From contig OX597816.1 of the NCBI GenBank assembly GCA_951406725.2, positions 144,708,001 to 144,772,000 of the forward strand: a DNA stretch of 64,000 nucleotides. The letters are read 5' to 3'. A model generated the notes under the pieces. That model saw only the letters and a program-made list of their open reading frames with translations. It had not been told where the DNA came from and searched no databases. The stretch is from Octopus vulgaris (taxonomy: Eukaryota). Positions 5,673-61,438 of this stretch are shown piece by piece. The position numbers and the translations under genes are program-made. Within the stretch, counting starts at the first letter, position 1. The number at the start of each line of letters is the position of its first letter.

Positions 5673-5693
5673 TTGGCGCTGGTGGTAATGGAA
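5673..5693 (-). CDS. 21-nt microexon A, terminal unit: (V)PLPPAP
   Basis: cttttcag|TTCCATTACCACCAGCGCCAA|gtaagt: strong splice sites, phase 1-1. Confidence 0.8.
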
Positions 5694-59600: not shown

Positions 59601-61438
59601 TACACACATACATATACATATATATATGTGTATAAATATATATATATATATATATATATATACGACGGGCTCCTTTCAGTTTTCGTCTACCAAATCCACT
59701 CACAAGGATTTGGTCGGCCCGAGGTTATAATAGAATACACTTGCCCAAGGTGACACGCAGTGAGACTGAACCCAGAACCATATGGTTCGTAAGCAAGCTC
59801 CTTACCACACAGCCACTCCTACGCCTTAATCAATACTTGAATATGTTTCCTTAATATTTCATTAATGATTTATGTTGTGTGTTGTGCGTTTCAGTTACGT
59901 AATTTTTGTTTAAAATGTTTTAGAAATATTTATATACATTTTATTACTTAAAATACATAGACCTTATGTTCGCAGATATATGTAATTACGTATCGTATGA
60001 ATGAAATTATGTATTTATGGGTGGAGGTAATGACCACAGGCTTTATATATGCTAGTATCTCCACAATGTAATTTCTATGAGTTAGCATATATATTAGAAC
60101 GTTTTCTAGTTATCATAAGGTTTGTAAATAACCGACCACATTCATATCGTTAGTCATATGCTCTCAGCGTGAAACTGGCCTCAGGAGACATGTTACTCTA
60201 CAACAATTTTTATGTGCGACTGTTGTTTTAAATATCAATGACTGACATATTTACTTAAAAGTTCAATTGTTAAATATTTCTTACCAATTGTACATTGTCT
60301 ACCGACAAATCCACGTCTACATGAGCATTTGTATGTTTGGCCACGTCTCCTGCACACTCCACCATTCTTGCATGGTTTTGCGTCACATGGATGAACTAGA
60401 AATTAAATTATAAATACTTAGCCACCGTTTAAAAATTGCTACAATAAATGAAAAGTTTGTGTGGCAAGTTTCCACCAAGGTAGCGGGGAGTCCTGAGATA
60501 TATTTAAGTGAAAATTTTTATTTACAACCAAGCAAATTTCCCTAAAATCTAAATCTATTGTATCTTTGAATATATTATATCAATTTAAAAATATGAAATC
60601 ATTGCAAATACCTAACAAGGCATCAAAGAACATTTTATTCCATTTTCAACATAATTACGCATTATTTCACCATTGAAGAATTTATTATATTATAATTGTA
60701 TCCAATATTACACATTTAGTTATTCTTTACAACGTGCTTCTGAAACTAAAGCTATTCTTACACTAATATGGCCCCGCAATTTACAAACTTTTCAGCATCA
60801 TCAATAGTTATGAATTCTATTCTGAATGGGAGAAATTCTACAATATATAGATACAAAATTTTATACATACCATTACAAGTTCTTTTAGTCAATCGCTTCA
60901 CAATGGAATTTAGAACGTTAAAGCCTTTTACTGAAAACACATGATTTCGGCGTGGTGAACTACCAATAACGTTCAATTCTAACCGTTTAATTCGTTTGCC
61001 AACACCAATAGCAAACACAATGGCGCCTGTTTTTCGTAATTTCAAAGCTGCGCTTTTAGTTTTACTGAGGTTGTTGGATTTGCCATCAGTTAGAACAATA
61101 GCAATATTCGGGACTAGTTTTCTATCTCCTGCTCTTTCGTCTGAATGAAAGTCTCCTCAAGTAATCAAGAGCTTTATGTGTATTCGTACTTCCATGTTTG
61201 TATTTTATTCTGTTGATAGCCTTGAGCACATTCTTCTTGTTATAATACCTATTCAACCTAAACTGCAGTTTGACCTTGTTGCTGAATGTAATGGCTCCCA
61301 CGCGAATTTTGTTTCTACCAATGTTAAAGGATTTCACTATATTTTGTGCAAATGTTTTCACCTTCGCAAAGTTCTTAGATCCCACACTACCAGAGTCATC
61401 CAACACGAGCATGACATCAGCAACTGCCTTTTCACAAC
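5673..61438 (-). CDS. Partial multi-exon gene: repetitive (VWA-EGF-Pro linker)x7 matrilin/collagen-VI-like extracellular protein (span of exons listed below)
   Basis: All exons are phase 1-1 with GT-AG and join in frame: [18 protein letters not shown]...[20 protein letters not shown]...QCRI-APAP-PPAP-II-SCEK. Start and stop exons are not seen in the window. Confidence 0.9.
5845..6002 (-). mobile_element. tRNA-derived SINE, octopus type; present in every unit
   Basis: Minus strand AGGCGGCGAGCTGGTAGAA...GTTCAAATT gives an A/B-box-like head. Units 2-7 share an internal deletion at a CGAAA microhomology. Confidence 0.7.
6020..6415 (-). mobile_element. tRNA-derived SINE with internal CA/TA tract, octopus OK/OR-like; present in every unit
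   Basis: Minus strand TGGCTGTGTGGTAAG (A box) and GGTTCAGTC (B box), then CACCTTGGGCAAGT, with an (AAGAGTA)-like tail. Confidence 0.75.
6879..6989 (-). CDS. EGF-like domain exon, unit 1
   Basis: tttctag|111 nt|gtaaga. Encodes (V)[36 protein letters not shown], a six-Cys EGF pattern. Confidence 0.93.
7464..8030 (-). CDS. VWA domain exon, unit 1
   Basis: tttcgtag|567 nt|gtatgt. MIDAS elements DDSGS, GSTNT and LTDG, flanked by Cys. Confidence 0.95.
8432..8672. repeat. Alternating inverted (TAA)n/(TTA)n microsatellite; equivalent in every unit
   Basis: Direct reading; the blocks are self-complementary. Confidence 0.9.
8674..8776. mobile_element. Truncated copy of the TAA-associated interspersed repeat
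   Basis: Matches the first ~100 bp of 19102..19626. Confidence 0.65.
9199..9204 (-). CDS. Candidate 6-nt microexon C (Ile-Ile)
   Basis: Pyrimidine tract...ccaaaag|TAATAA|gtaagtat. Frame-preserving with a consensus donor. Confidence 0.4.
11230..12960. repeat. About three copies of a ~0.57-0.59 kb TG/TA-rich satellite inside the PLE-like insertion
   Basis: Anchor TGTACGCT(CT)TG recurs at ~11233, 11821 and 12384, each followed by GGGTAACTGCA and AGGAGGCGCGTG. Confidence 0.8.
13750..13800 (+). ncRNA. Type I hammerhead ribozyme
   Basis: AGCUUC-CUGAUGA-UUUCuuuuGAAU-GAA-ACAG-uucuaguc-CUGU-A-GAAGCU: 6-bp stem I, full core, stem III and a GUA cleavage triplet. Confidence 0.8.
14369..14380 (-). CDS. 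12-nt microexon B (PPAP)
   Basis: Pyrimidine tract..ccaaaag|CACCAGCACCAA|gtaagt, phase 1-1. Confidence 0.6.
16076..16087 (-). CDS. 12-nt microexon A (APAP), unit 2
   Basis: catttcaag|CCCCAGCGCCAC|gtaagt; homologous to 5673..5693. Confidence 0.65.
17248..17358 (-). CDS. EGF exon, unit 2
   Basis: Near-identical to unit 1 with intact splice sites. Confidence 0.93.
17833..18399 (-). CDS. VWA exon, unit 2
   Basis: 567 nt, intact MIDAS and splice sites. Confidence 0.95.
19102..19626. mobile_element. ~520-bp TAA-microsatellite-associated interspersed repeat (SINE-like)
   Basis: Higher-GC block GAGAGCAGTGCATGCC...GAGCCAGTGTCTGG bounded by (TTA)n. Also at ~29703-30229, 43949-44474 and 51375-51901; absent near 37080. 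Confidence 0.7.
20033..20038 (-). CDS. Candidate 6-nt microexon C
   Basis: aag|TAATAA|gtaagt. Confidence 0.4.
21301..24660 (+). mobile_element. Penelope-like element remnant, second copy
   Basis: Near-identical to 10483..13885. Confidence 0.75.
24525..24575 (+). ncRNA. Type I hammerhead ribozyme, copy 2
   Basis: Same sequence as 13750..13800. Confidence 0.8.
25135..25146 (-). CDS. 12-nt microexon B
   Basis: aag|CACCAGCACCAA|gtaagt. Confidence 0.6.
26675..26686 (-). CDS. 12-nt microexon A, unit 3
   Basis: aag|CCCCAGCGCCAC|gtaagt. Confidence 0.65.
27864..27974 (-). CDS. EGF exon, unit 3 (QCTI variant)
   Basis: 111 nt, six Cys, intact splice sites. Confidence 0.93.
28450..29016 (-). CDS. 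VWA exon, unit 3
   Basis: 567 nt, intact MIDAS and splice sites. Confidence 0.95.
30632..30637 (-). CDS. Candidate 6-nt microexon C
   Basis: aag|TAATAA|gtaagt. Confidence 0.4.
32427..32438 (-). CDS. 12-nt microexon B
   Basis: aag|CACCAGCACCAA|gtaagt. Confidence 0.6.
34189..34200 (-). CDS. 12-nt microexon A, unit 4
   Basis: aag|CCCCAGCACCAC|gtaagt; the GCG>GCA change is synonymous in the predicted frame. Confidence 0.65.
35385..35495 (-). CDS. EGF exon, unit 4 (QCTI variant)
   Basis: 111 nt, six Cys, intact splice sites. Confidence 0.93.
35969..36535 (-). CDS. VWA exon, unit 4
   Basis: 567 nt, intact MIDAS and splice sites. Confidence 0.95.
37432..37437 (-). CDS. Candidate 6-nt microexon C
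   Basis: aag|TAATAA|gtaagt. Confidence 0.4.
39224..39235 (-). CDS. 12-nt microexon B
   Basis: aag|CACCAGCACCAA|gtaagt. Confidence 0.6.
40970..40981 (-). CDS. 12-nt microexon A, unit 5
   Basis: aag|CCCCAGCGCCAC|gtaagt. Confidence 0.65.
42142..42252 (-). CDS. EGF exon, unit 5
   Basis: 111 nt, six Cys, intact splice sites. Confidence 0.93.
42727..43293 (-). CDS. VWA exon, unit 5
   Basis: 567 nt, intact MIDAS and splice sites. Confidence 0.95.
44876..44881 (-). CDS. Candidate 6-nt microexon C
   Basis: aag|TAATAA|gtaagt. Confidence 0.4.
46618..46629 (-). CDS. 12-nt microexon B
   Basis: aag|CACCAGCACCAA|gtaagt. Confidence 0.6.
48377..48388 (-). CDS. 12-nt microexon A, unit 6
   Basis: aag|CCCCAGCGCCAC|gtaagt. 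Confidence 0.65.
49550..49660 (-). CDS. EGF exon, unit 6
   Basis: 111 nt, six Cys, intact splice sites. Confidence 0.93.
50135..50701 (-). CDS. VWA exon, unit 6
   Basis: 567 nt, intact MIDAS and splice sites. Confidence 0.95.
52295..52300 (-). CDS. Candidate 6-nt microexon C
   Basis: aag|TAATAA|gtaagt. Confidence 0.4.
53536..56908 (+). mobile_element. Penelope-like element remnant, third copy
   Basis: Near-identical to 10483..13885. Confidence 0.75.
56773..56823 (+). ncRNA. Type I hammerhead ribozyme, copy 3
   Basis: Same sequence as 13750..13800. Confidence 0.8.
57451..57462 (-). CDS. 12-nt microexon B
   Basis: aag|CACCAGCACCAA|gtaagt. Confidence 0.6.
59099..59110 (-). CDS. 12-nt microexon A, unit 7
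   Basis: aag|CCCCAGCGCCAC|gtaagt. Confidence 0.65.
60285..60395 (-). CDS. EGF exon, unit 7 (QCTI variant)
   Basis: 111 nt, six Cys, intact splice sites. Confidence 0.92.
60871..61438 (-). CDS. VWA exon, unit 7 (5'-most), with a +1 frameshift
   Basis: 568 nt; GCTCTTTCGT at 61131-61140 versus GCTCTTCGT in the other six copies. Splice sites are intact. Confidence 0.85.

What the first reader, a model, noticed from the sequence alone, without database searches (positions are those of the whole stretch)
5673..61438. Recently amplified, strongly cationic (VWA-EGF-Pro linker)x7 protein: candidate cephalopod adhesive, mucus or egg-case matrix protein
Seen: seven near-identical exon cassettes splice into a ~236-aa repeat. 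A hand count gives ~42 K/R versus ~9 D/E in the 189-aa VWA exon, and ~10 K/R versus 1 D in the EGF exon, so roughly +40 per repeat. The MIDAS (DxSxS..T..D) is intact. Known: VWA+EGF is the matrilin architecture, and VWA proteins occur in molluscan adhesives (mussel PTMP1, matrilin-like slug glue proteins). Inference: a multivalent polycationic, metal-binding cross-linker for anionic polysaccharides, whose length can change by unequal crossover.
Basis: partly seen in the sequence, partly recalled or inferred. Interest (0 to 1): 0.75.

Follow-up and report, generated by a model that had tools for sequence, protein, structure and literature searches.

The report
Giant cationic von Willebrand-like octopus protein
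Seven near-identical spliced repeats are the middle part of one very large octopus gene for a predicted secreted, extremely positively charged protein laid out partly like human von Willebrand factor, which likely comes from the blood-forming organ and would glue blood cells and negatively charged surfaces together at wounds.

Summary
The seven VWA-EGF-proline units are real: 236 aa each (unit 7: 235), net +41 to +42, metal-site motif intact. Public-run contigs splice VWA to EGF and join unit to unit through exactly the three predicted micro-exons; the one frameshift is absent from 4 of 4 runs. But the array is not the whole protein. It sits inside a ~193-kb gene: signal peptide, 5 other cationic VWA, VWD-C8-TIL-E-EGF, the 7 units, a second VWD assembly, two PAN domains; estimated 3,686 aa, net about +576. 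Both VWDs carry the GDPH self-cleavage motif. The O. sinensis RefSeq ortholog has only 2+1 VWA. Tissue evidence is indirect. Published O. maya 'zonadhesin' primers fit this gene best of 27 family exons (6 vs 12+ mismatches), and that transcript is high in white body and testis. Skin-mucus peptides match less cationic paralogs, not this gene (partial file). It is a new variant of a known kind. Four look-ups found no earlier scan note on this DNA.

The parts
1..64000 (-). Whole window lies inside one ~193-kb gene. Start codon at G000:C3:~144,868,112, stop at ~144,675,000. Order: signal peptide, 5 B-type VWA, VWD-C8-TIL-E-EGF, 7 A-type units (this window), VWD-C8-TIL-E-EGF, PAN, PAN
   Evidence: tblastn of the O. 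sinensis RefSeq isoform P0130 on 264 kb of G000; flanking domain exons open
57451..61438 (-). Unit 1: VWA 61438-60871 (568 nt, one extra base, frameshifted as assembled), EGF 60395-60285, 12-nt exons 59110-59099 and 57462-57451
   Evidence: the extra base is left out in contigs of 4 of 4 runs
46618..52300 (-). Unit 2: 6-nt exon 52300-52295, VWA 50701-50135, EGF 49660-49550, 12-nt exons 48388-48377 and 46629-46618
39224..44881 (-). Unit 3: 44881-44876, VWA 43293-42727, EGF 42252-42142, 40981-40970, 39235-39224
32427..37437 (-). Unit 4: 37437-37432, VWA 36535-35969, EGF 35495-35385, 34200-34189, 32438-32427
25135..30637 (-). Unit 5: 30637-30632, VWA 29016-28450, EGF 27974-27864, 26686-26675, 25146-25135
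14369..20038 (-). Unit 6: 20038-20033, VWA 18399-17833, EGF 17358-17248, 16087-16076, 14380-14369
5673..9204 (-). Unit 7: 9204-9199, VWA 8030-7464, EGF 6989-6879, terminal 21-nt proline exon 5693-5673, leading to the second VWD about 12 kb downstream
   Evidence: link to the VWD from gene models P0001 and P0130, not from reads

Best explanation
The seven repeats are spliced, strongly cationic VWA-EGF modules in the middle of one large gene for a predicted secreted protein of about 3,700 residues with two VWD assemblies, which is likely made in the blood-forming white body and would act as a multivalent cross-linker that binds haemocytes, damaged matrix and microbes into a wound plug. Shown: exon structure, unit-to-unit splicing, charge, MIDAS and GDPH motifs, flanking domains. 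Inferred: twelve VWA domains bind acidic ligands through Mg2+ at the MIDAS. Their surfaces (about +33 each) bind polyanions such as sulfated glycans, cell coats, LPS or DNA. Proline micro-exons space the modules. GDPH self-cleavage would leave the VWD assemblies disulfide-held and protease-resistant, as in FCGBP. Unequal crossing-over and gene conversion change the number of modules, and so valency. The site and role (haemocyte plug) are the least certain steps.
For: Structure. Splicing: VWA-EGF intron skipped in runs X1 and X2. The joint 61438->60285 carries 30 letters equal to the predicted 12+12+6-nt micro-exons in X1 and X2 (two studies), and X15 (another species label) has a contig of the same geometry. 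Secretion: the only strongly hydrophobic 19-mer is the N-terminal one (2.57, next 1.33). Charge: VWA +17.5 per 100 aa against mean -0.7, SD 2.6, max +8.9 in 187 other VWA domains from 121 proteins. 14 of 14 mature segments of the ortholog are net positive. Cationic VWA is conserved in O. bimaculoides (P0231, +30). Tissue: O. maya 'zonadhesin' qPCR primers (PMC6522055, Table 1) fit this gene's second VWD exon with 6 mismatches in 41 bases, against 12 or more for the other 26 of 27 family exons. That paper reports high expression in female and male white body, similar to testis. [quoted passage not shown] GDPH role: PMC10880436, passages.
Against: The tissue link rests on 41 primer bases from another species, and the paper's figure values were not visible. 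Testis is as high as white body, which a purely haemostatic role does not predict, unless it comes from resident haemocytes. No haemolymph or haemocyte data for this gene were found. The O. vulgaris haemocyte transcriptome paper names VWF only in a figure legend, and a single-cell paper marks haemocytes by vegf and svep1, not this gene; its marker tables were unreadable. The protein has no cystine knot hit in Pfam, and reads TGICG where the vWF/FCGBP CGLCG motif lies, so vWF-type covalent multimers are not expected. A free polycation of this size in plasma would need to be stored until release (inference).
Confidence: 0.4

Rival explanations
1. It is a resident pericellular or stromal matrix cross-linker of soft tissues (white body, testis and others). 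It binds proteoglycans and collagen like collagen VI or matrilin, with no special role in bleeding.
For: The closest solved VWA structures are collagen VI alpha-3 and mussel PTMP1. Expression in two unrelated organs at similar levels. VWA+VWD proteins also occur in pearl oyster and amphioxus (P0181, P0202).
Against: The extreme charge is not seen in 187 other VWA domains, many of them from collagen VI/XIV/XXI-type proteins. Generic stromal proteins would not obviously need two independently amplified cationic arrays (inference).
Confidence: 0.27
2. One reading: a cationic cohesive protein of skin mucus, sucker adhesive or egg cement. It would set by complexing with acidic polysaccharide, like flatworm Mlig-ap1.
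For: Mlig-ap1 is cationic, has VWD-C8-TIL and EGF domains, and is blocked by heparin (PMC6410801, passages). A flatworm adhesion protein 1 is a 35% hit to the VWD region (P0212). Matrilin-like VWA/EGF proteins are reported in semislug glue (PMC11178922, passages). Oviducal peripheral-gland granules are strongly eosinophilic and the central gland is acidic (PMC13336147). Two unassignable 'ZAN' transcripts are listed from O. maya oviducal gland. Paralogs are in skin mucus.
Against: This gene is not among 3,654 held skin-mucus peptide rows, though the ortholog yields 81 tryptic peptides of 7-30 aa against 61 for the detected paralog (file cut, and a polycation could be lost in extraction). No match for 6 terms in the held ink proteome file, 362 protein rows. 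The primer-matched transcript is high in male tissues.
Confidence: 0.18
3. It is a male reproductive matrix protein (spermatophore cement or sperm coat) with side expression in white body.
For: High testis expression of the primer-matched transcript. The VWD assemblies resemble 'zonadhesin-like' proteins.
Against: No MAM or transmembrane domain. Equal expression in female white body.
Confidence: 0.08
4. The tandem units are real but their number is inflated or unsettled in this assembly, so 'seven' and 'recent species-specific expansion' are overstated. This does not exclude the functional readings above.
For: All 12 O. sinensis RefSeq isoforms have one A unit and one or two B units. G000 has a 100-N gap with a 7.4-kb, 99.6% duplicate at the end of the B array. 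Transitions 24 vs transversions 33 suggest some base errors. B units 2 and 3 have no substitution in 2,002 columns.
Against: 22 shared informative sites and a mosaic pattern are hard to obtain from two haplotypes. Unit-to-unit joints exist in contigs under two species labels, so the single O. sinensis copy may itself be a collapse.
Confidence: 0.2

Closest known systems
O. sinensis RefSeq LOC118762594 ('von Willebrand factor-like' / 'zonadhesin-like', XP_036357277.1 and 11 isoforms; P0130, P0003)
   Same: Ortholog: same domain order, 2-7 residue differences over 225 aa of VWA+EGF, same micro-exon linkers, equally cationic.
   Different: Models hold 2 B + 1 A VWA (1,462-1,668 aa) against 5 + 7 here. 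Automatic names only; 0 papers hold any of six accessions or locus names searched, this locus's among them. The database models from this locus (P0001, P0002) split the gene in two and omit the EGF exons of the units.
Vertebrate von Willebrand factor
   Same: VWA domains set between VWD-C8-TIL-E assemblies in a secreted protein. Proposed role at wounds.
   Different: 12 MIDAS-intact VWA vs 3; VWA also N-terminal; EGF and PAN present; no cystine knot hit; TGICG instead of CGLCG; GDPH present. The VWDs are far closer to FCGBP (E=1.6e-246) than to vWF (7e-57). The vWF domain order and CGLCG motif are recalled.
FCGBP and invertebrate FCGBP/zonadhesin-like multi-VWD proteins
   Same: GDPH in both VWDs; VWD-C8-TIL-E repeats; best PDB match; oyster 'zonadhesin-like' proteins are the top non-octopus hits, 39-41%.
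   Different: No FCGBP_N domain; only 2 VWD assemblies; VWA-EGF arrays and PAN domains added; FCGBP-like P0135 is net negative.
Matrilins and mussel PTMP1
   Same: VWA with terminal cysteines and MIDAS motif; VWA-EGF pairing; PTMP1 is the second-best solved structure for the VWA (E=2e-43).
   Different: No matrilin coiled-coil hit; much larger, with VWD and PAN domains.
Flatworm adhesive protein Mlig-ap1 (PMC6410801, passages)
   Same: Very cationic secreted protein with VWD-C8-TIL and EGF domains; polyanion-dependent cohesion.
   Different: Its charge lies in K/R low-complexity regions; here it lies on folded VWA, EGF, VWD and C8 domains. The passage read lists no VWA in Mlig-ap1.
Octopus paralogs LOC115209496 (P0032/P0014) and LOC115229549 (P0191)
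   Same: P0032 has the same VWA-EGF-VWD-C8-TIL-E-EGF-PAN-PAN plan at 50-66% identity; peptides found in skin mucus.
   Different: VWA only +4 per 100 aa, whole protein +2.6 vs +13; one VWD assembly.

Membership tests
von Willebrand factor | VWA domains together with multiple VWD-C8-TIL units (PMC4948705) | tested here: met
   12 VWA and 2 VWD assemblies
von Willebrand factor | Three N-terminal D assemblies, VWC run and C-terminal cystine knot for multimerisation (recalled) | tested here: not met
   N-terminus is VWA, C-terminus is PAN-PAN, no cystine knot or VWC hit
von Willebrand factor | Forms multimers and binds blood cells and collagen under flow (recalled) | not testable with these tools
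   needs protein work
Matrilin | VWA plus EGF modules | tested here: met
Matrilin | C-terminal coiled-coil oligomerisation domain, no VWD (recalled) | tested here: not met
   Pfam lists none; two VWD and two PAN present
FCGBP | GDPH-bearing VWD-C8-TIL repeats | tested here: met
   GDPH at 457 and 1101 of P0130; both exons present in G000
FCGBP | N-terminal FCGBP_N domain (PMC4948705) | tested here: not met
   no such Pfam hit; first VWA starts at residue 50
FCGBP | Autocatalytic Asp-Pro cleavage actually occurs | not testable with these tools
   motif only; PMC10880436 notes a GDPH in MUC2 that stayed uncleaved
Gel-forming mucin | PTS domain with at least 40% Ser+Thr, after three VWD-C8-TIL units (PMC4948705) | tested here: not met
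   highest Ser+Thr in any 50 aa is 30%; linkers are 2-7-aa micro-exons
Zonadhesin | MAM domains (PMC4948705) and a transmembrane segment (recalled) | tested here: not met
   no MAM hit; no internal hydrophobic 19-mer above 1.33
MIDAS-type VWA domain | DxSxS, T and D ligands | tested here: met
   present in 7 of 7 A and 5 of 5 B exons; aligned to solved structures; metal binding itself untested
Molluscan or flatworm adhesive protein | Made in an adhesive gland and found in the secreted glue | tested here: inconclusive
   absent from partial skin-mucus and ink tables; no sucker or oviducal data assignable to this gene

The most novel reading that the evidence does not exclude
Octopuses have independently built a von Willebrand factor analogue. 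It is a roughly 400-kDa haemocyte-derived protein whose dozen polycationic MIDAS domains are arrayed by copy-number-variable exon cassettes and tuned by 6-21-nt micro-exons. It forms the eosinophilic glue of the wound plug by charge complexation instead of disulfide polymerisation, and it also traps microbes.
Probability: 0.3. Interest if true: 0.75.

Novelty: new variant of a known kind. Interest (0 to 1): 0.52.

Why it matters
Octopuses have a closed circulation (PMC9712504, passage) and seal wounds with haemocyte plugs (PMC5974545). None of my paper searches named a protein that holds such a plug together (none aimed only at clotting). This gene is a concrete, testable candidate. Whatever its tissue, folded VWA domains at +17.5 charges per 100 residues with an intact metal motif are far outside the 187 other VWA domains measured and are of interest as wet-adhesive or haemostatic modules. 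The work also corrects the annotation: two broken models are one gene, and a transcript published as octopus 'zonadhesin' and read as a fertilisation gene is probably this protein.

Tried and rejected
No RNA holder listed: none of the 24 runs is on record as RNA, and names are coded, so no tissue could be read. The four runs with share 0.00 are not used. Contig depths were not used to count copies or rank expression; joint contigs carry about half the VWA contig depth (491.5 of 948; 44.9 of 86.1), which cannot separate 2 from 7 copies because the joints differ by variants. No read evidence was obtained for the link from unit 7 to the second VWD, or for depth of single-copy exons; those links rest on gene models.

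A tandem array of small separate genes was rejected: no signal exon or stop was found within a unit, and units splice to each other. A processed pseudogene as source of the joints was rejected: all matches above 78% identity lie at this locus. A circular RNA from one unit would give the same joint and is not excluded by contigs alone, but the genome holds the tandem copies. A real frameshift in unit 1 is judged unlikely (4 of 4 runs lack the base), but contigs drop rare variants and pool all units.

My recollection that a single-cell paper marks octopus haemocytes by 'vwf' was wrong; it uses svep1. dN/dS was uninformative within the A array (42 non-synonymous and 18 synonymous pairwise differences, units 2-7) and 0.49-0.58 between A and B. 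Two slug-glue papers were not held. Supplements of PMC11431876 and PMC6522055 and the data zip of PMC9712504 could not be read and may bear on tissue. No structure or complex prediction was run.
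Full report
Observation. Self-comparison shows seven 95-98% identical blocks in the window. Each holds a 567-nt VWA exon and a 111-nt EGF exon on the minus strand; internal units add micro-exons of 6, 12 and 12 nt, and unit 7 ends in a 21-nt exon. All are phase 1. An internal unit gives 236 aa, net +41 or +42, pI above 11. The MIDAS motif is in 7 of 7 exons and aligns with solved VWA domains. Unit 1's VWA exon has one extra base and is out of frame as assembled.

Splicing. 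Four public runs were laid on unit 1. They are contigs, and their RNA nature is a guess by the tool. In X1 and X2 (two studies) contigs skip the 475-base VWA-EGF intron at its splice sites, and the non-repeat intron bins have zero depth. In the same two runs a contig leaves the EGF end and re-enters at the VWA start with 30 letters between; these equal the predicted 12+12+6-nt micro-exons. X15, under another species label, has a contig with the same geometry. X9 shows no such joint and has intron cover. The extra base of unit 1 is left out in 4 of 4 runs, so it is most likely an assembly error, with the limit that contigs pool all units.

The real gene. The window is G000:C3:144,708,001-144,772,000, and five more VWA exons at 79-81% identity lie 27-57 kb upstream. 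The protein search returned a database model of this locus labelled Octopus vulgaris (P0001), a second for the upstream part (P0002), and an O. sinensis RefSeq ortholog with 12 isoforms. Mapping isoform P0130 on 264 kb of G000 places all its domains in order over about 193 kb: signal peptide, five B-type VWA with proline linkers, VWD-C8-TIL-E-EGF, the seven A units, VWD-C8-TIL-E-EGF, two PAN. (TIL and E labels are from cysteine pattern and relatives; Pfam gave only a weak TILa hit.) The flanking domain exons are open. A few small N-terminal and linker exons were not located. Adding the extra units to P0130 gives an estimate of 3,686 aa and net +576; this is arithmetic, not a transcript. A 100-N gap with a 7.4-kb, 99.6% duplicate interrupts the assembly after the B array and probably explains the split models. 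The links from the array to both VWD assemblies rest on the gene models, not on reads laid here.

History of the array. The A units differ by 7-34 substitutions in 2,460 aligned columns. 22 sites are shared between units, and 59 of 231 site pairs are incompatible, which indicates crossing-over or conversion between copies. The B units differ by 0-19 in 2,002 columns. A and B diverged earlier (dS about 0.2, dN/dS 0.49-0.58). All 12 O. sinensis models have one A unit and one or two B units, and differ in which micro-exons they include. That is either real copy-number change or a collapsed assembly; the X15 joint shows tandem units are not limited to one species label.

Charge. The VWA domain has +17.5 charges per 100 aa. 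187 other VWA domains from 121 proteins returned average -0.7 (SD 2.6, max +8.9). That count predates, which added three similarly cationic domains among 18 hits: O. bimaculoides P0231 (78% identical, +30) and two unnamed proteins (50-54% identical, +39 and +34). These group with this gene in a tree of 29 rows at 90/94, drawn open, and P0232 is flagged for composition. The charge is thus older than the seven-fold array. All 14 mature segments of the ortholog are net positive, while the paralog P0032 with the same plan is only +2.6 per 100.

VWD type. Both VWDs have GDPH and read TGICG where FCGBP-like P0135 reads CGLCG. The best solved match is FCGBP. In FCGBP, GDPH cleavage raises protease resistance and the pieces stay disulfide-linked (PMC10880436, passages). 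Pfam lists no cystine knot, MAM, FCGBP_N or matrilin coiled coil. There is no PTS region and no transmembrane stretch. By the definitions in PMC4948705 (passages), plus recalled ones for vWF and matrilin, it is not a member of vWF, FCGBP, gel-forming mucins, zonadhesin or matrilin. It resembles vWF in setting VWA domains between D assemblies.

Where it is made. No paper held six accessions or locus names searched. In an O. vulgaris skin-mucus peptide table (PMC10138644; passages, and 3,654 held rows of a cut supplement) all 12 'zonadhesin' places belong to paralogs, and ten gene-specific names or peptide words gave no match. Six terms gave no match in the held ink proteome supplement (PMC10142993, supplement search only). 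An O. maya white-body study (PMC6522055; abstract, sections 13, 19, part of 17, passages) measured a 'zonadhesin' transcript. Its primers fit this gene's second VWD exon with 6 mismatches in 41 bases and a 146-base product; the other 26 of 27 family exons in G000 have 12 or more. The paper reports high expression in white body of both sexes, similar to testis; I could not see the figure. An O. maya oviducal-gland study lists two ZAN transcripts that cannot be assigned (PMC8976471, passages and supplements). Oviducal histology fits a basic-plus-acidic cement in principle (PMC13336147, passages). PMC4199593 and PMC9712504 (passages) gave nothing on this gene. PMC11431876 (passages) names VWA proteins in mucus without identifying them.

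Mechanism. I commit, at 0.4, to a white-body or haemocyte product that cross-links cells, matrix and microbes at wounds by MIDAS binding plus polycation-polyanion complexing, stabilised by cleaved VWD assemblies. Wound studies describe early eosinophilic amorphous material and agglutinated haemocytes in a fibrous net (PMC5974545, passages). The rivals are stromal matrix (0.27), adhesive or cement (0.18) and male reproductive matrix (0.08).

Verdict. The feature is real and already partly annotated, and it is a new variant of the secreted VWA/VWD kind. It is notable for its charge, two amplified arrays and micro-exon linkers. Interest 0.52, and 0.75 if it proves to be the octopus wound-plug protein. 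Four look-ups of earlier scan notes found none on this gene.

Noticed in passing
G000:C3:144,791,842-144,791,941 (between L010 and L011): 100-N assembly gap inside the gene, flanked by a 7.4-kb duplicate at 99.6% identity that repeats both exons of the first VWD; likely a contig overlap artefact.
   Followed up: partly
window 59241-59826 and the same intron in every unit: A dispersed repeat in the EGF-to-linker intron draws thousands of contigs at very high depth in three runs; likely a transcribed SINE or MITE family.
   Followed up: no
window 549-902 (+): Weak match to an endonuclease-reverse transcriptase domain, below the Pfam cut-off; probably a LINE remnant in the intron.
   Followed up: partly
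window 10297-10809, 21302-21628, 53536-53862 (+): Short frames in the three long units that look, from recall, like the end of a Penelope-type GIY-YIG endonuclease; the first got no Pfam hit. These lie in the ~3.4-kb insert that marks the long units.
   Followed up: partly
window 1334-1957 (-): 207-aa frame with a short Trp-containing helix-like motif that recalls a Myb/SANT domain of a transposon; no Pfam hit.
   Followed up: partly
G000:C3:25.18-25.72 Mb and 89.6-89.9 Mb (L032-L046, L049, L050, L052, L054): Two clusters of paralogous VWA/VWD genes, with about a dozen near-identical VWD exons at 25.3-25.4 Mb; peptides of these paralogs are in skin mucus.
   Followed up: partly
G000:C23:38.04-38.32 Mb: A much longer VWA exon array, including about 27 equal-scoring copies at ~1.85-kb spacing and about 11 at ~3.2-kb spacing.
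   Followed up: no
G000:C18:43.15 and 43.22 Mb (L047, L048): Two identical, cationic (+10) VWD exons 74 kb apart; a second cationic family member or an assembly duplicate.
   Followed up: no
micro-exons at window 9204-9199, 14380-14369 and upstream linker exons: Linker exons of 6-21 nt, several with A-rich acceptors and the pyrimidine tract set back; O. sinensis models include them variably, which would change spacing between domains.
   Followed up: partly
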